A stretch of 64,000 bases of DNA from Escherichia phage vB_EcoM_JNE01: sequence record OR670491. The stretch is one strand, 5' to 3'. Position 1 is the first letter of the stretch. Every line of letters starts with the position of its first letter. The translations under genes and the position numbers were made by a program. The notes beneath the pieces are model-generated. The model was not told where the DNA came from and searched no databases. It was given only the letters and a program-made list of their open reading frames with translations. This document shows, in pieces, positions 26,543 through 32,251 of this stretch.

Positions 26543-26566
26543 TTCGAAAATAAAGAAAAAAAGTTC

Positions 26567-26594
26567 TTGACAAGTTAAAATGATGTGATATAAT
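26567..26594 (+). promoter_or_regulatory. sigma70 promoter P1 (TTGACA, 16-nt spacer, TGaTATAAT) with A-tract upstream and TGATG/CATCA inverted repeat across the -10
   Basis: Consensus hexamers read directly. Confidence 0.55.
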
Positions 26595-26658
26595 GAGCAT
26601 CACGAAGTAAGTTTTCAAAATCACATGATGTGAGATTGAAAAAAAAGAAAAAAAGTTG

Positions 26659-26686
26659 TTGACAAGGTTGAACGATGTGATATAAT
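26659..26686 (+). promoter_or_regulatory. sigma70 promoter P2 (TTGACA, 16-nt spacer, TGaTATAAT) with GTTGAAC/GTTCAAC inverted repeat flanking the -10
   Basis: Near-duplicate of P1 about 90 bp downstream. Confidence 0.55.
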
Positions 26687-26750
26687 GTTCAACATCAAGA
26701 CGACGAAGTGATTGACCTTTTTAAACACACGGATGATTCATGAAGTAACA

Positions 26751-26798
26751 AAGGAACTGATAAGTTAAAAATACTTTTAACACAGTTCCTTTACTTTT
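26751..26798 (+). terminator. leader stem-loop / possible attenuator (AAGGAACTG/CAGTTCCTT with nested GTTAAAA/TTTTAAC)
   Basis: 9-bp outer stem, U-rich 3' side, between P1/P2 and the proximal promoter. Confidence 0.4.
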
Positions 26799-26808
26799 GC
26801 CATCGGAT

Positions 26809-26817
26809 TGGTATAAT
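26809..26817 (+). promoter_or_regulatory. proximal extended -10 promoter (TGgTATAAT)
   Basis: About 40 nt upstream of ATG 26856. Confidence 0.4.
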
Positions 26818-26855
26818 AGAAATCTCAAATTTATCCAACTAAAAGGAAACTATAC

Positions 26856-28187
26856 ATGTCTACTCAAAACGCTGATATCCTGAACGTAAAACTGACTCCT
26901 AAGAAAGCTAAAGCAGCAATGGCACTGGCTGACATGATTCAAGACAGCCTGATGATTTGGGGTAGCCCTGGTATCGGTAAATCTGCAATTGCCCGTCAAT
27001 ACGCTGATGAGAACTACCCACTGCGTAAAGACAATCTGGCTAAGATTGAGTTCATGAAGCAGCAAATTGAAGTTGATGTAGAAAATGCTGACCAACTACG
27101 CCGTGAACTGGCAGCGTTCGAAGCTAAACTGATTGACCAAGACACCAACTTCATCGACTTCCGTTTGTCACAGATTGAACCAAGTGACCTACGTGGTATC
27201 CCAGTACCAGAGAAGATTTTCCTTGATATGGATGGTAAGCAACTGATTGAATCTGAACTGGAAACTGCACAAAACTACATCGCTGAAACAGCAGTAGTAT
27301 GGGCTGCACCAAAAGTACTGAAACTAAGCCCTGAATGGAAAGGTGTTATCCTGTTCGACGAAATTAACTCTGCAATGCCTATCGTGCAAGCAGCTTCTTA
27401 TCAGCTAATCCTCGACCGCTGTGTTGGTGAGATGAAGCTACCTAAGAAAGCTCTGATTCTGGCAGCAGGTAACCGTGAAACTGATGGCGGTGTAACCTTC
27501 TCTCTAGCTACACCACTGCGTGACCGTATGACTCACATCGAGATGGTTCCTTATCATCAAGATTGGATTAACGACTACGCAATTGCGAAACGTCTGAACC
27601 CAGCAACTGTTGCGTTCATCAACAACACTGGTGCTAAGTACTTCAACACCCTTAGCCCACAAGATCCTTCTCACAGTGGTGGTACTTCCCCACGTTCATG
27701 GGAAGCAGTAGCACGCTACGAAGACCTGAAGAAAGGTGGTCAGAGTATCGATAAAGAAGTGTTCCGTGCTCTAGTTGCAGGTCGTGTTGGTGAAGGTGTT
27801 GCTACCGAGTACATCGAATATGTAGAAAACGTATCTAAACTACCAGATACCATGTCTATCCTAAACGGTGAGATTAAAGAGATTGACGCTTCGCTAGATA
27901 TTTCTGCGAACTACTTCATCTCTCTGAACCTGGTCTATAAAATTATCGACCTGTACAATGAGAAGCAAGAACAACGTCTGGATGTGGCTGAATGGGGTAA
28001 ACTGTGCAACAACTTCATCATCTTCCTAGACCATAACTTCTCTGCAACTCAAGCAGAACTGGCAGTACTAGCGATTCGTACCATCACTCAGGCACGTGTA
28101 GCGATTTCGACTAAAGATGTACCAGCGTTCACTGACTTCATCAAGAAGTACACTGACCTAGTACGTAAAGCACGCTCCCTAAGCTAA
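26856..28187 (+). CDS. MoxR-type AAA+ ATPase (CobS/AAA_5-like) with a long insertion between Walker A and B
   Basis: Walker A GSPGIGKS, Walker B ILFDEIN; coiled-coil-like insert of about 120 aa between them. Confidence 0.75.
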   Translation: MSTQNADILNVKLTPKKAKAAMALADMIQDSLMIWGSPGIGKSAIARQYADENYPLRKDNLAKIEFMKQQIEVDVENADQLRRELAAFEAKLIDQDTNFIDFRLSQIEPSDLRGIPVPEKIFLDMDGKQLIESELETAQNYIAETAVVWAAPKVLKLSPEWKGVILFDEINSAMPIVQAASYQLILDRCVGEMKLPKKALILAAGNRETDGGVTFSLATPLRDRMTHIEMVPYHQDWINDYAIAKRLNPATVAFINNTGAKYFNTLSPQDPSHSGGTSPRSWEAVARYEDLKKGGQSIDKEVFRALVAGRVGEGVATEYIEYVENVSKLPDTMSILNGEIKEIDASLDISANYFISLNLVYKIIDLYNEKQEQRLDVAEWGKLCNNFIIFLDHNFSATQAELAVLAIRTITQARVAISTKDVPAFTDFIKKYTDLVRKARSLS

Positions 28188-28263: not shown

Positions 28264-29688
28264 ATGTCTCAAGAACAAAAATTCAAATTCGAAGAAGTTT
28301 CAGCTTCAGTACAGAAAGAGTGCCAAGACCGTCTTATTCTCGCACGTACATCTTTGATGCTTACTAAACCATTCTTTGGTGTACTGGCATCCCGTCTTCG
28401 TCCAGTACCTAACAACACATGGTGTCGTACTCTGGCAGTAGATGGTAAGCACCTTTTTTATAACGTAGAATTCGTAATGGGTATTCAAGACCCACTCAAG
28501 AAAGACGCATATGAAGCAGCAATGCGTGAAGCTCATCCAGAAATTACTGACGAGCAGTTGAAAGAAATGACCGAAGGCTTGACTGACGAAAACCTGATTG
28601 CAGTTATTTGTCATGAAATTCTTCACTGTGCATACGACCACTTCTTGCGTCGTGGTATGCGTGACCCACAACGTTACAACCGTGCTGCTGACTACGCGAT
28701 TAACCAGATTCTGGTTCGTGAAAAGATTGGTAAAATCCAGAATGGTTGGTTGTATGATCCAAAATATGACGGTATGACCGCAGAAGAGATCTACAACATT
28801 CTTCTAGAAGAAGATGAAAAACAAGAACAACAAGAAGGTGAAGGCGAAGGCCAACCACAACAAGGTGGTAGTGGTCAGGGTGAAGGGCGTTCACGTGGTA
28901 CATTTGGTGACCTTGCTGATGGTAAAGGTAAAGGCACTCCAAAAGGTACTACCATTGACCAACATGACGTTCCACAAGATGGTGATGGCGGTCAGTCTGA
29001 AGAGAAGAAACGTGAATATATGGACGATTTCAAAACCGCAATGATGAACGCGGCTCGTGCAGGTGGTACACCAGCAGAAATCGAACGTATGATCAATAAC
29101 TTCAAAGCACCAAAAATTGACTGGCGTGCAAAACTGCAACGTACTTTGCGTAGCTGGTTGAAATCTGACGCTACTTATCAGAACCCAAACCGTCGTTCAT
29201 GGGGTGCAGGTTTTGGTTCTAACGGTTCATTCTACGGGAACCCAATTTTCCCAGGCATGAAACCAGATGATGATATTGATATCGCAATTGCACTAGATGC
29301 ATCCGGTTCTATCTCTGAAGATATGCTCCGTGACTTCATCAGTGAAGTACTGGGTATCACTAAACAATTCAAACAGTTTAAGATTCGTATCATGACATTT
29401 GATACTCAAGTTTATACTGTAATGGATTACAAAACTGGTGAAGAACGTAAGATTCTTGAATATCCAGTTAAAGGTGGTGGCGGTACTGACTTTGAAGCAG
29501 TGTGGGTTCACATGAAACACGACAACTACAAGCCTAAACAACTTGTAATGTTTACAGATGGTGAGCCGTGGCAGTCATGGGGTGATCCTAACTACTGTAA
29601 GACACTGTTCGTTATTCACAGTAATCCAGAGAAAGTCGCACCATTCGGTGAAACCGTACACTACGAGTACGAAAATAAGAAAAAATAA
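28264..29688 (+). CDS. vWA-domain protein with N-terminal HExxH metallopeptidase-like domain (MoxR partner, CobT/DUF2201-like)
   Basis: HEILH motif; Gly-rich linker; MIDAS-type DASGS at the start of the C-terminal vWA fold. Confidence 0.75.
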   Translation: MSQEQKFKFEEVSASVQKECQDRLILARTSLMLTKPFFGVLASRLRPVPNNTWCRTLAVDGKHLFYNVEFVMGIQDPLKKDAYEAAMREAHPEITDEQLKEMTEGLTDENLIAVICHEILHCAYDHFLRRGMRDPQRYNRAADYAINQILVREKIGKIQNGWLYDPKYDGMTAEEIYNILLEEDEKQEQQEGEGEGQPQQGGSGQGEGRSRGTFGDLADGKGKGTPKGTTIDQHDVPQDGDGGQSEEKKREYMDDFKTAMMNAARAGGTPAEIERMINNFKAPKIDWRAKLQRTLRSWLKSDATYQNPNRRSWGAGFGSNGSFYGNPIFPGMKPDDDIDIAIALDASGSISEDMLRDFISEVLGITKQFKQFKIRIMTFDTQVYTVMDYKTGEERKILEYPVKGGGGTDFEAVWVHMKHDNYKPKQLVMFTDGEPWQSWGDPNYCKTLFVIHSNPEKVAPFGETVHYEYENKKK

Positions 29689-29736: not shown

Positions 29737-29764
29737 TGGACAATCACTGAAAGCGTGATATAAT
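29737..29764 (+). promoter_or_regulatory. sigma70-like promoter (TGGACA, 16-nt spacer, TGaTATAAT)
   Basis: Same architecture as P1/P2. Confidence 0.45.
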
Positions 29765-29798
29765 TAAAGTTGTAATCAATAACATGGAGAGTTATACA

Positions 29799-30047
29799 AT
29801 GAGTCAAGAAAACCAACAAGAACAAGTTATCCAACTAGACCTAATCGACCTAATCAATGCTGCACGTATTCTAGAAGCTGCTGTTGCTCGTAATACTTTT
29901 ACCGTTGATGAATTGGTTCAAGTCGCACCAGTTGTTTCTAAAGTTGTTTCTTTTGCACAAACTGCACAAGCAGACATTGAAGCTAAAGAAGCAGCACGTC
30001 TTGCTGCTGAAGCTGGTGAAACTAACAACGTTCAAGAAGGGGAATAA
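29799..30047 (+). CDS. hypothetical small protein
   Basis: ATG with GGAGAG SD; ORF track begins at 29784. Confidence 0.4.
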   Translation: MSQENQQEQVIQLDLIDLINAARILEAAVARNTFTVDELVQVAPVVSKVVSFAQTAQADIEAKEAARLAAEAGETNNVQEGE

Positions 30048-30049
30048 TT

Positions 30050-30691
30050 ATGGCTATTCGTCACACTGGTGTAATGCGTAATACAGGTTCACGAGTTTTC
30101 GTTGTATGGCGTGCACTACCAGATGATCCACAACATTGCTTGGTAATTTATCGTGATTCACTTCCAGAAGCATATGTATATGCCGTGACTGATATTGTCA
30201 ACAATCAAGGTCAAAGCTCAATCGACCTATGGGAAGTTATGCACAAGATTGGTTATCTAGATGGACGTAAAATGCTAGATGTTCTACACAATATGCAGTA
30301 CTTACATCGTGTTCGCACTTGTGACATTGATATGCATACTGGTGGTAACAACAAGATTTCTCTTGACGTTCTAAACGCTGCTATCGATGAAGGTAACAAA
30401 GTACACCAAGATAGCAAAGTAAAAGATTTCAATCCATTTGCACCACAAGAAGTTGATACCAGCGTTGAAGATGCTACTATCGTAGGTCAACTACTAGCTG
30501 ATGCTCGTAAACACGAGAAACTAGCTCAAGACTTCTATGAGCGTGCATATAACCTAGAACCTTCACTTCGTACTGAAGTTAAAGTTGAAGCAGTAACTCC
30601 AGGTACATTCACTGTTGAATTCCCTGAAGGTATTTCACAAACTAAAGCAATCGAACGTGTTAAGAAAGCTCTTGCAGAGCGTAAAGCATAA
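30050..30691 (+). CDS. hypothetical protein
   Basis: 213-aa ORF with GAAGGGG SD. Confidence 0.5.
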   Translation: MAIRHTGVMRNTGSRVFVVWRALPDDPQHCLVIYRDSLPEAYVYAVTDIVNNQGQSSIDLWEVMHKIGYLDGRKMLDVLHNMQYLHRVRTCDIDMHTGGNNKISLDVLNAAIDEGNKVHQDSKVKDFNPFAPQEVDTSVEDATIVGQLLADARKHEKLAQDFYERAYNLEPSLRTEVKVEAVTPGTFTVEFPEGISQTKAIERVKKALAERKA

Positions 30692-30696
30692 GTTCT

Positions 30697-31293
30697 ATGA
30701 AAATAACCGAATTAGATGAAGCAATTCGTGGCTTTTCTAATACGTTTTTCAGTGGCGGGGCAGATGGTGCTGACCGCCATTTTACATTATATGCTCTTGA
30801 AAAGGGATTCAATGTAATCAACTTTTCTTTCAGGGGTCATAATCATAGTGTAGATGAAGATACAATATTAGAAATACCTTCTCATATTTTATGTGATAGT
30901 ACAGTACTGAAACAATTAAACATGGCATGTTACTCTTTGCAGCGTAAAGTACCTAAGCCTGGTTCTTACGTATTCAACTTACTAGCACGTAATCGTTATC
31001 AAATTCTAAACACAGAACGAGTTTATTGTATTGCAAAAATCGAATCACCAACTAGAGTTAGTGGCGGTACTGCATGGGCAGTTCAAATGTATATGGATAG
31101 TGTTGACAATCCTGAAATCTATTGTTATGATATGAATTCAAAAAGTGTGTATACATTTGACAATACAAATAAAGAGTTCGTTGAAGTATTCACTATTCCT
31201 GCACCACATGGTAATTGGACAGGAATTGGTTCTCGAAATGCAACTGTTAAGCATTTTGAGCATTTCAAAACATTTTTCAAGGAAGACAAATGA
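30697..31293 (+). CDS. hypothetical protein with DprA/Smf-like (SLOG-type Rossmann) signature
   Basis: FSGGADGADRHFTLYAL and LARNRYQIL ... SGGTAWAVQ resemble the DprA motifs SGxAxGxDxxAH and RNR...SG; recalled only. Confidence 0.35.
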   Translation: MKITELDEAIRGFSNTFFSGGADGADRHFTLYALEKGFNVINFSFRGHNHSVDEDTILEIPSHILCDSTVLKQLNMACYSLQRKVPKPGSYVFNLLARNRYQILNTERVYCIAKIESPTRVSGGTAWAVQMYMDSVDNPEIYCYDMNSKSVYTFDNTNKEFVEVFTIPAPHGNWTGIGSRNATVKHFEHFKTFFKEDK

Positions 31294-32219
31294 AACAACT
31301 ACAAGAGCTATATCAAAAAATTCTAGATGAAGGCGTAGAAAGCGTTGACCGTACTGGTGTTGGTACAATCAAACTAATCGGACAACAAATGCGTTTTGAT
31401 TTGTCGGAAGGTTTTCCAGCAGTGACAACTAAACGTTTAGCTTGGAAAGCAATGACCTCGGAATTGTTATGGTTCATTGAAGGTTCCCATGATGAACGTC
31501 GTCTATGTGAAATTCTACATGGTACTCGTGATTGGGAAAAAGTGACAATCTGGACTGGTAATTACAAAAACCAAGGTGTTAATCTTGGATACACCGATGG
31601 TGAGTTGGGTCCAGTTTATGGCAAACAATGGCGTTGCTGGGAAGATTACAAATTCAGTGCTGTTACCGAAGAAATTCAAGAATTGAAAGACAAAGGATAC
31701 AAAGTACTGGATTATACAGGTTCACATGGTGTTGTTATGAAACGCACCACTGACCAGCTAATGGATCTAATCAATGGTATCAAAGAAGATCCATACGGTC
31801 GTCGTCACATTCTTTCCGCATGGAACGTTGGTGAACTTGACCAAATGACATTACCACCATGTCATAGCTTTGTTCAGTTCTGTGTTGTTCAAGGTAAACT
31901 AAGCTGCATTCTACATCAACGTAGTGCTGATATGTTCTTGGGTGTTCCATTCAATATTAGTAGCTATTCTCTACTAACACATATTATTGCACAAATTACT
32001 GGGTTAGATGTTGGTGAGTTTATTTGGAATGGTGGAGACTGCCACATTTACAAAAACCACGTTGAACAAGTAAAAGAACAACTACTTCGTGAGCCACACG
32101 AACTACCAGAATTATGGTTAGATCCTTCAATTACTTCTATCGAAGATTTGAAAATGAATTCATTCAAACTACTGAATTACAATCCAATGGCAACAATCAA
32201 AGCACCAATGGCTGTATAA
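31290..32219 (+). CDS. thyA: thymidylate synthase (ThyA type)
   Basis: MRFDLSEGFPAVTTKR, ELLWFIEG, active-site PPCH, SADMFLGVPFNI; 309 aa. Confidence 0.9.
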   Translation: MKQLQELYQKILDEGVESVDRTGVGTIKLIGQQMRFDLSEGFPAVTTKRLAWKAMTSELLWFIEGSHDERRLCEILHGTRDWEKVTIWTGNYKNQGVNLGYTDGELGPVYGKQWRCWEDYKFSAVTEEIQELKDKGYKVLDYTGSHGVVMKRTTDQLMDLINGIKEDPYGRRHILSAWNVGELDQMTLPPCHSFVQFCVVQGKLSCILHQRSADMFLGVPFNISSYSLLTHIIAQITGLDVGEFIWNGGDCHIYKNHVEQVKEQLLREPHELPELWLDPSITSIEDLKMNSFKLLNYNPMATIKAPMAV

Positions 32220-32225
32220 ACGAAA

Positions 32226-32251
32226 GGGAGAACATATGTTCTCCCTTTTTT
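32226..32251. terminator. bidirectional terminator (palindrome GGGAGAACATATGTTCTCCC with A-run/T-run flanks)
   Basis: Perfect palindrome between the convergent thyA and fibre genes. Confidence 0.7.

What the first reader, a model, noticed from the sequence alone, without database searches (positions are those of the whole stretch)
30697..32219. DprA/SLOG-like protein translationally coupled to thymidylate synthase
The gene before thyA carries SGGADGADRH and RNR...SGG motifs reminiscent of DprA/Smf Rossmann domains, and its stop overlaps the thyA start (ATGA). In T4-like phages this position usually holds a dihydrofolate reductase, so the substitution may point to a nucleotide-modification or nucleotide-sensing role.
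Basis: inference. Interest (0 to 1): 0.35.

Follow-up and report, generated by a model that had tools for sequence, protein, structure and literature searches.

The report
Phage SLOG nucleotide-binding protein beside thyA
The gene in front of thymidylate synthase in this giant E. coli phage encodes a small nucleotide-binding protein of the DprA/LOG (SLOG) fold, a kind already catalogued in large phages. Its biochemical job is unknown, but its gene neighbours point to deoxynucleotide metabolism.

Summary

It is not a true DprA. It has no Pfam match above threshold, no SAM or winged-helix domain, and a near-neutral pI. The phosphate-binding "GSR" strand sits at the C-terminus, so the domain looks circularly permuted, like cpYpsA.

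The T4 premise fails. The window comes from a Rak2-like jumbo phage (99% to phage Turkey5). Its relative 121Q has DHFR about 100 kb from thyA and its own UvsX/UvsY. Adjacency to thyA is confined to this lineage, and in 15 of 19 loci another ORF intervenes. In more distant T4-related phages the homologue usually follows a dNMP kinase directly, often with a 4-nt overlap.

Best reading: a mononucleotide-binding or -processing protein tied to the dNMP pool. The mechanism is inferred. The main rival is degradation or sensing of ADP-ribose-derived immune signals, the published prediction for viral SLOG domains. I rate it a new member of a known kind, of modest interest.

The parts
29737..29764 (+). 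Sigma-70-like promoter match (TGGACA-16-TATAAT, 11/12, extended -10 TG) in the gap before the 87-aa ORF. Possible start of the four-gene unit.
   Evidence: Consensus match only; the number of such matches in the region is not above the shuffled expectation.
29784..30047 (+). 87-aa ORF of unknown function (phrog_13789), first gene of the tight cluster.
   Evidence: Found in 14 of 19 Rak2-like loci.
30050..30691 (+). 213-aa ORF of unknown function (phrog_15894), conserved directly upstream in all 19 Rak2-like loci.
30697..31293 (+). 198-aa standalone SLOG-fold protein (YpsA/DprA-like clade, circularly permuted).
30751..30774 (+). Codons S19-D26, SGGADGAD: the glycine-rich loop plus Asp, equivalent to DprA SGxAxGID and the YpsA GxD/E motif.
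   Evidence: S19, G20, G21, G24 and D26 invariant in 53 sequences. Sequence read directly.
30988..31002 (+). Codons R98-Q102, RNRYQ: helix equivalent to the DprA 'RNR' and the LOG Arg helix.
   Evidence: R98 and Q102 invariant, N99 at least 90%.
31063..31080 (+). Codons G123-A128, GGTAWA: equivalent to LOG PGGxGTxxE and DprA SGS. The LOG catalytic Glu position is Gln130 here.
   Evidence: G123, G124, T125, W127 and A128 invariant; Q130 at least 90%. The motif equivalence is my inference.
31222..31236 (+). Codons G176-R180, GIGSR: the strand-1 'GSR' phosphate-binding loop of canonical SLOG/DprA, here at the C-terminus.
   Evidence: G176, G178 and R180 invariant. Moving this segment to the N-terminus extends the PHROG 768 alignment to profile positions 3-5 and raises the score in 4 of 4 pairs.
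31280..31293 (+). thyA ribosome-binding site (AGGA at 31280-31283) and the ATGA stop/start overlap (31290-31293).
   Evidence: The junction is TAATG in 121Q and TAAAAATG in RaK2.
31290..32219 (+). Thymidylate synthase ThyA (309 aa).
   Evidence: PF00303 E=4.6e-99. NCBIfam equivalog passed.
32222..32249 (+). Intrinsic-terminator-like hairpin (12-bp stem, T-run) that ends the unit.
   Evidence: sequence.
14662..15294 (+). Context: the phage's dNMP kinase homologue (210 aa), between the gp13-like neck gene and the tail sheath. This is the slot where SLOG sits in more distant phages.
   Evidence: tblastn 45% identity, E=8e-51, to the L054 kinase, which matches Pfam DNMK at 44.4 bits against a gathering score of 27.1. 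121Q gp550 annotation.

Best explanation
The ORF encodes a single-domain Rossmann-like protein of the SLOG superfamily, YpsA/DprA-like clade, with a circularly permuted topology like cpYpsA. Four invariant loops are predicted to form the usual SLOG pocket for a 5'-phosphorylated (deoxy)ribosyl nucleotide: GIGSR (phosphate), SGGAxGAD, RNxxQ and GGTxWA.

It is made from the same mRNA as thymidylate synthase, and thyA translation is coupled to its termination. Across related phages the gene is repeatedly attached to one of two enzymes that handle dTMP and other dNMPs: ThyA here, and dNMP kinase elsewhere. I therefore propose that it acts on the deoxynucleoside-monophosphate pool. It could cleave or exchange the N-glycosidic bond of a particular (d)NMP, which is LOG-type chemistry, or it could bind one as a regulatory or partner subunit.

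Shown: the fold, the motifs, the coupling and the gene linkage. Inferred: the ligand and the chemistry.
For: Fold and family:
- PHROG 768 E=4e-23; AF2 pLDDT 97.
- Sub-threshold Pfam YAcAr in 14 of 53 members, and cpYpsA or DprA in some relatives.

Permutation:
- Moving the C-terminal segment to the front raises the PHROG 768 score in 4 of 4 pairs. The alignment then starts at profile position 3-5 instead of 22-35.
- Pfam DprA alignments of permuted sequences start at the GIGSR strand.

Coupling:
- ATGA overlap with a Shine-Dalgarno site inside the SLOG gene.

Linkage to dNMP enzymes:
- ThyA lies downstream in all 19 Rak2-like loci.
- A Pfam-confirmed dNMP kinase lies within 4 kb in 52 of 61 more distant viral loci and is usually the directly preceding gene. 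The overlap is 4 nt in 17 loci, while the outer flanks vary.
- The window phage keeps its own dNMP kinase in the ancestral slot next to the tail sheath, with SLOG moved next to thyA.
- SLOG fusions to guanylate-kinase domains in phages are reported in PMC9503650.
Against: - No ligand, activity or structure has been determined for any member.
- The position of the LOG catalytic Glu is Gln in at least 90% of members, so LOG-type hydrolysis is not assured.
- Most kinase-linked loci share wider T4-like synteny (gp13, sheath). The linkage counts are therefore not fully independent events.
- In 15 of 19 Rak2-like loci a 115-aa ORF separates SLOG from thyA.
- Other associations point to NAD/ADP-ribose chemistry instead: a NADAR fusion, a histidine-phosphatase fusion, an Acb1 neighbour and an ADP-ribosylglycohydrolase neighbour.
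Confidence: 0.4

Rival explanations
1. Counter-defence. The SLOG domain binds or degrades ADP-ribose-derived immune signals (cADPR isomers and related molecules) made by host TIR/Thoeris-type systems. This is what Iyer et al. predicted for viral YpsA-like SLOG domains.
For: - Published prediction for viral SLOG domains, which occur in 31% of jumbo phages (PMC9503650; PMC7824862).
- One family member lies inside a 2942-aa protein with a NADAR domain, and another is fused to a histidine phosphatase.
- Acb1 is the next gene in L081, and an ADP-ribosylglycohydrolase lies near the copy in L103.
- 121Q encodes Macro and Nudix proteins about 17 kb upstream of its SLOG gene.
Against: - The dominant and tightest linkage is to dNMP kinase and ThyA, not to Macro or NADAR.
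- No PADLOC or other defence-related profile matches the window protein.
- The NADAR, ARH and Acb1 contexts are single cases.
- In T4, acb1 (57B) lies next to gene 1 (my own knowledge), so Acb1 proximity may only reflect the position of the kinase.
Confidence: 0.25
2. A DprA-type recombination mediator. The protein binds ssDNA and loads the phage RecA/UvsX, as the public annotation 'DprA-like DNA recombination-mediator protein' implies.
For: - PHROG 768 name.
- The GSR, GxD and RNR motifs resemble DprA.
- Iyer 2021 suggests DprA/Smf proteins as extra ssDNA binders in jumbo phages.
- In Flavobacteriaceae the chromosomal homologue is paired with a WYL regulator next to topA. That some WYL domains sense ssDNA is my own knowledge.
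Against: - No PF02481 hit for the window protein even at E<=1.
- Single domain, without the SAM or winged-helix domains.
- Window protein pI 6.4 and family median 6.5.
- 121Q already has SSB, UvsX and UvsY side by side (gp6-8).
- The gene neighbours are nucleotide-metabolism genes, not recombination genes.
Confidence: 0.1
3. A positional or functional replacement of dihydrofolate reductase in a T4-type frd-td cassette.
For: In T4, frd precedes td with an ATGA overlap (my own knowledge: Purohit and Mathews 1984). The junction here looks the same.
Against: - The phage is Rak2-like, not T4-like.
- DHFR is encoded elsewhere in 121Q (gp42) and in RaK2 (gp148).
- No DHFR-like sequence occurs in the window.
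- The fold is SLOG, not DHFR.
Confidence: 0.02

Closest known systems
cpYpsA family (Pfam PF12694, 'circularly permutated YpsA SLOG family'). The structure 3imk, deposited as a putative molybdenum carrier protein, belongs to it as far as I recall.
   Different: The window protein gives no PF12694 hit even at E<=1. A profile of the family does not find 3imk by sequence. The protein is longer, with an extra beta-hairpin at about residues 150-164. No function is known for cpYpsA either.
DprA/Smf (PF02481) and the DprA-like antitoxin ShosA
   Different: No Pfam hit above threshold, no SAM or DML1 domains, permuted order, near-neutral pI, and no recombination-gene context. ShosA and DprA bind ssDNA and RecA (PMC11961720, PMC12961424); nothing here indicates that.
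LOG / PpnN nucleotide 5'-monophosphate N-glycosidases
   Different: The catalytic Glu position is Gln130 in at least 90% of members. No Pfam Lysine_decarbox hit. Permuted topology.
Viral YpsA-like SLOG domains and YAcAr/DUF2493 (PF10686), catalogued by Iyer et al. 2021 and 2022
   Same: A standalone SLOG protein in a jumbo phage. Weak YAcAr matches in 14 of 53 members. The fEgEco12 orthologue is annotated as DUF2493.
   Different: The YAcAr score is below the gathering cut-off (19.5 against 28.2). Those papers stress Macro/NADAR contexts and ADPr signals. Here the conserved partners are dNMP kinase and ThyA.
T4 frd-td cassette
   Same: A small gene whose stop overlaps the thymidylate synthase start in an ATGA.
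   Different: The upstream gene is a SLOG protein, not DHFR, and DHFR is elsewhere in the genome.

Membership tests
SLOG superfamily | Rossmann-like three-layer alpha/beta fold whose nearest structural neighbours are SLOG members | tested here: met
SLOG superfamily | Glycine-rich loop after the second strand, plus a GxGT/SGS-type loop and a conserved Arg helix | tested here: met
   SGGAxGAD, R98-N99 and GGTxWA are invariant or nearly invariant in 53 sequences.
DprA/Smf (PF02481) | Match to the Pfam DNA_processg_A model above the gathering score (29.6 bits) | tested here: not met
   No hit for the window protein at E<=1. Only 2 of 53 members reach E<=0.05. Permuted sequences reach 15.6-19.3 bits.
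DprA/Smf (PF02481) | Accessory N-terminal SAM and/or C-terminal winged-helix domain, and the canonical strand order | tested here: not met
   198 aa, a single domain. The GSR strand is at the C-terminus.
DprA/Smf (PF02481) | ssDNA binding and RecA loading | not testable with these tools
   Indirect only: pI 6.4, and the relative 121Q has its own UvsY.
cpYpsA (PF12694) | Match to the Pfam model above the gathering score (26.2 bits) | tested here: not met
   No hit for the window protein. Relatives P0237 and P0234 score 19.5 and 17.5 bits.
cpYpsA (PF12694) | Circular permutation of the YpsA-type SLOG core | tested here: met
   Moving the C-terminal 29-33 residues to the front extends the alignment to the canonical PHROG 768 profile (start at position 3-5 instead of 22-35). 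It adds 1.5-10.5 bits in 4 of 4 pairs. This is sequence-level evidence; I could not read the sheet order from coordinates.
YAcAr / DUF2493 (PF10686) | Match above the gathering score (28.2 bits) | tested here: not met
   19.5 bits, E=9e-4, covering only residues 5-45.
LOG phosphoribohydrolases | PGGxGTxxE motif with the catalytic Glu | tested here: not met
   The motif reads SGGTAWAVQ. Gln130 occupies the Glu position under my motif alignment, and only one aligned member shown (P0037) has Glu.
PHROG 768 ('DprA-like DNA recombination-mediator protein') | Significant match to the family profile | tested here: met
   E=4.4e-23, 82.8 bits, residues 3-155. The family name is an annotation, not a tested function.
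Thymidylate synthase ThyA (the neighbouring gene) | Equivalog-level profile match and the catalytic PCH / QRSxD / GDxHxY motifs | tested here: met
   NF002497 334.5 bits against 327; TIGR03284 320 bits against 108. The motifs are visible in the translation.

The most novel reading that the evidence does not exclude
This permuted SLOG subfamily has about 2,500 clusters at 50% identity and is almost all viral. It could be an undescribed enzyme of phage deoxynucleotide metabolism that works with dNMP kinase and thymidylate synthase. It might remove an unwanted dNMP by N-glycosidic cleavage (pool sanitising), or it might exchange the base on a dNMP so that the kinase feeds a non-standard nucleotide into DNA synthesis.
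Probability: 0.2. Interest if true: 0.6.

Novelty: new member of a known kind. Interest (0 to 1): 0.3.

Why it matters
Viral SLOG domains are common, reported in 31% of jumbo phages, yet none has an experimentally known ligand. The recurrent, often overlapping pairing of this subfamily with dNMP kinase, and with ThyA in Rak2-like phages, gives a concrete and cheap hypothesis to test: binding of or activity on dNMPs against ADP-ribose signals. It also warns that the widely propagated label "DprA-like DNA recombination-mediator protein" is probably misleading for these genes. For this window itself the finding is ordinary. The gene is conserved, already annotated in relatives, and does not indicate a new pathway.

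Tried and rejected
Searches that gave nothing useful:
- NCBIfam: no hit for the SLOG protein.
- PDB sequence searches: the single protein found nothing. The family profile found only spurious matches to designed WD40-like 'Ika' repeats through the SGAADG motif. P0237 found nothing relevant.
- PADLOC: no hit for the window protein; only weak ShosA matches for two distant fused relatives.
- Foldseek against the PDB gave only 3imk near significance, at E=1.3e-3.
- afdb50 fold search: library not available.
- Burroughs et al. 2015, the founding SLOG paper, is not held. Its classification is cited only second-hand through PMC6459960 and PMC9503650.
- Literature searches for cpYpsA, DUF2493, 'DprA-like' with thymidylate synthase, and SLOG with anti-Thoeris found no experimental work on this family.
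- PHROG and Pfam scans of the extra about 100-aa C-terminal domain in the roughly 300-aa homologues found nothing.
- No tRNA genes in the window.

Readings considered and rejected:
- DHFR substitute, because DHFR is elsewhere in the genome.
- thyA as a dUMP or dCMP hydroxymethylase, because it passes the TS equivalog model and has the canonical motifs.

Full report
**1. What is in the sequence**

Two same-strand ORFs fill 30697-32219: a 198-aa ORF (30697-31293) and a 309-aa ORF (31290-32219). The junction is AAGGAAGACAAATGAAAC. The downstream ATG (31290) and the upstream TGA (31291-31293) share three bases, and an AGGA lies 6 nt before the ATG.

The downstream gene is a canonical thymidylate synthase (PF00303 E=4.6e-99; NCBIfam equivalog NF002497 334.5 bits against 327).

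The two genes end a tight four-gene cluster of an 87-aa ORF, a 213-aa ORF, SLOG and thyA. Gaps within it are 2, 5 and -4 nt. A sigma-70-like match at 29737-29764 precedes the cluster, and a strong hairpin terminator at 32222-32249 follows it. The promoter call is a consensus match only.

**2. Origin of the window**

The region is 99% identical to Escherichia phage Turkey5 and 77-79% identical to 121Q, PBECO4 and other members of genus Asteriusvirus. These are Rak2-like jumbo myoviruses of about 350 kb.

In RefSeq the 121Q orthologue (gp567) is already named "DprA-like DNA recombination-mediator protein". In phage fEgEco12 it is called "DUF2493 domain-containing protein".

**3. Fold and family**

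Profile matches:
- PHROG 768 ("DprA-like") matches at E=4.4e-23.
- Pfam gives only a sub-threshold YAcAr/DUF2493 hit (19.5 bits against 28.2) over residues 5-45.
- NCBIfam, PADLOC and PDB sequence searches give nothing for this protein.

Family size and conservation:
- A search of 5.8 billion proteins found 105 homologues.
- A profile search of 1.84 billion cluster representatives found 2,519 at E<=1e-3.
- In a 53-sequence alignment, S19, G20, G21, G24, D26, A77, L95, R98, Q102, G123, G124, T125, W127, A128, G176, G178 and R180 are invariant.

Structure:
- AlphaFold2 on this alignment gives pLDDT 97 and pTM 0.92.
- In BFVD the best hit is an uncharacterised protein of Agrobacterium jumbo phage Atu_ph07 (TM 0.81-0.87). 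Domains inside 1,000-1,450-aa proteins of crAss-like phages also match.

That test is not met, so the fold call stands.

**4. It is not a true DprA, and it looks circularly permuted**

The protein is a single domain with no SAM or winged-helix module. It does not reach the Pfam DprA, cpYpsA, YAcAr or LOG thresholds.

The DprA/LOG strand-1 loop "GSR" is missing from the N-terminus. An invariant GIGSR instead lies at residues 176-180, after the last core strand.

I tested permutation by moving the last 29-33 residues to the front.
- Against PHROG 768, the alignment then began at profile position 3-5 instead of 22-35.
- The score rose in all four pairs: 82.8 to 84.3, 61.5 to 70.6, 62.8 to 69.3, and 58.9 to 69.4 bits.
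- Three of ten permuted sequences gave Pfam DprA alignments that start at the GIGSR strand, with a best E of 7e-4. The best native E was 0.036.
- Two distant relatives give weak hits to Pfam PF12694, "circularly permutated YpsA SLOG family".
- The best structural neighbour, 3imk, belongs to that family as far as I recall. I could not verify this here.

I could not read model coordinates, so the sheet order itself remains inferred.

**5. Gene context across phages**

*Rak2-like loci.* In 19 Rak2-like viral loci the order VWA/DUF2201 protein, (87 aa), 213 aa, SLOG, ThyA is conserved. However, 16 of them have a 102-aa ORF before SLOG, and 15 have a 115-aa ORF between SLOG and ThyA. A close stop/start junction is seen only in the window (ATGA), 121Q (TAATG) and RaK2 (TAAAAATG).

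*More distant viral loci.* These number 61, at 31-40% identity to the window protein. None has ThyA within 4 kb.
- 52 of them have a P-loop kinase within 4 kb, and it is usually the directly preceding gene.
- That kinase matches Pfam DNMK (deoxynucleotide monophosphate kinase) at 44.4 bits against 27.1. Precomputed Pfam hits on two independent contigs agree.
- The kinase stop and the SLOG start overlap by 4 nt in 17 loci.
- The outer flanks differ between loci: tail sheath, a PTH2-like gene, Acb1 and others.

*The kinase in this phage.* The window has its own DNMK homologue at 14662-15294 (45% identity, E=8e-51). It lies between the gp13-like neck gene and the tail sheath, as in 121Q. That is the slot SLOG occupies in Atu_ph07-type phages.

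So in two lineages the gene sits beside one of two enzymes that make or use dTMP and other dNMPs. Much of the kinase linkage is shared synteny within a broad T4-related clade, so the counts are not independent events.

**6. The T4/DHFR premise**

The frd-td overlap in T4 is real (my own knowledge: Purohit and Mathews 1984). This phage, however, is only distantly related to T4.
- 121Q encodes DHFR (gp42, 30.7 kb) about 100 kb from thyA (gp568, 278.8 kb).
- RaK2 has DHFR gp148 and TS gp059 (PMC3622015).
- No FolA-like sequence occurs in the window.

The SLOG gene therefore does not replace DHFR.

**7. Other associations of the family**

- Fusions: NADAR, inside a 2,942-aa protein, and a histidine phosphatase. 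BFVD also lists a helicase fusion.
- The family is overwhelmingly viral. There were 263 confirmed stretches in IMG/VR against 17 in one genome each of 185,579 bacterial and archaeal species.
- Twelve of the 17 genome copies are chromosomal, in Paenimyroides, Myroides and Flavobacterium. In each the SLOG gene is immediately followed by an HTH-WYL-WCX regulator, and where the contig reaches far enough miaB and topA flank the pair.
- One Bacteroidales locus has an ADP-ribosylglycohydrolase nearby.
- The family's median pI is 6.5, and the window protein's is 6.4.
- 121Q has SSB, UvsX and UvsY side by side (gp6-8).

**8. Literature**

- Iyer et al. 2021 (PMC7824862) note DprA/Smf and YAcAr SLOG proteins in jumbo phages.
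- Iyer et al. 2022 (PMC9503650) report SLOG domains in 31% of jumbo phages and place most in the YpsA-like clade. They predict that these domains sense or degrade ADP-ribose-derived immune signals, and they mention sporadic fusions to guanylate kinase.
- The DprA-like antitoxin ShosA binds ssDNA and RecA (PMC11961720, PMC12961424).
- I found no experimental study of this phage subfamily.

**9. Interpretation**

*Shown:* a conserved, real gene for a standalone, probably permuted YpsA/DprA-clade SLOG protein. It is co-transcribed with thyA, and thyA translation is coupled to it. Family-wide it is linked to dNMP kinase.

*Inferred:* the four invariant loops form the usual SLOG pocket for a nucleoside 5'-phosphate.

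*Ranking of explanations:*
- It binds or processes a (deoxy)mononucleotide in the phage dNMP pathway, about 0.4. This reading has the strongest contextual support.
- ADP-ribose-signal counter-defence, about 0.25.
- DprA-type recombination mediator, about 0.1.
- DHFR substitute, effectively excluded.

The LOG catalytic Glu position is Gln in most members. If there is chemistry, it may therefore differ from LOG hydrolysis, and a purely binding role remains open.

**10. Verdict**

This is a new member of a known kind: viral SLOG proteins are catalogued, and the orthologues are already annotated. Interest is about 0.3. The main value is a testable hypothesis about the dNMP link and a caution about the "recombination mediator" label.

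Noticed in passing
window 14662-15294 (+); 121Q gp550 in L085 4131-4757: The dNMP kinase gene sits inside the structural module, between the gp13-like neck gene and the tail sheath. In Atu_ph07-like and other T4-related phages the SLOG gene lies exactly there, right after the kinase. In Rak2-like phages SLOG appears about 15 kb downstream, next to thyA.
   Followed up: partly
window 26567-26594 and 26659-26686 (+): Two perfect 12/12 sigma-70 consensus promoters (TTGACA-16-TATAAT with an extended -10 TG) lie in tandem in the 26543-26855 intergenic gap. This gap is upstream of the MoxR-like ATPase gene (26856-28187), which precedes the VWA/DUF2201 metallopeptidase-like gene (28264-29688).
   Followed up: no
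window 31103-31131 (+): An 11/12 sigma-70-like match (TTGACA-17-TATGAT) lies inside the SLOG coding sequence, about 160 nt before thyA. It could give thyA its own transcript, or it could be chance.
   Followed up: no
window 31290-32219, ThyA residues ~100-150: ThyA is 309 aa against a 266-position Pfam model. An insertion of about 45 aa is conserved in the Rak2-like group (66-91% identity across those loci). Its significance is unknown.
   Followed up: no
L091-L102 (Paenimyroides, Myroides, Flavobacterium chromosomes), e.g. L091 3980-5473: A chromosomal SLOG homologue is immediately followed by an HTH-WYL-WCX regulator, in 12 loci. Where the contig reaches far enough, miaB and topA flank the pair. 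This looks like a cellular two-gene module that might share a ligand.
   Followed up: partly
P0055, P0064, P0075, P0093, P0100 (about 300 aa); L083 6001-6879: A subgroup of kinase-linked homologues carries an extra conserved C-terminal domain of about 100 aa (HPLIExPKxxDIIYVP...GGWATVxRI...KPDYS). It has no Pfam or PHROG match.
   Followed up: partly
P0241 (2942 aa), P0190 (368 aa), BFVD A0A7M1RTM7 and A0A6J5QNL6: The same SLOG domain occurs inside giant multi-domain phage proteins, one with a C-terminal NADAR domain. It is also fused to a histidine phosphatase and to a 3'-5' helicase.
   Followed up: partly
L081 6591-7058 (-) and L082 5169-5636 (-): In one kinase-SLOG phage the next gene, convergent, is an Acb1 homologue (anti-CBASS 2H phosphodiesterase, PF23474).
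   Followed up: no
121Q L085 290-1995 (gp540, gp541, gp544); window ORF 12250-12726: Nudix hydrolase, glutaredoxin and Macro-domain genes lie about 17 kb upstream of the SLOG gene in 121Q. This fits the reported genome-level co-occurrence of Macro, Nudix and SLOG domains in large phages. The window ORF is equated with 121Q gp544 by position and length only.
   Followed up: no
L004-L018 and L065, e.g. L011 3706-4014 and L007 4595-4942: Most Rak2-like relatives have two extra small ORFs, of 102 aa and 115 aa, inserted on either side of the SLOG gene. The window, 121Q and Turkey5 lack both; RaK2 lacks only the 115-aa one.
   Followed up: partly
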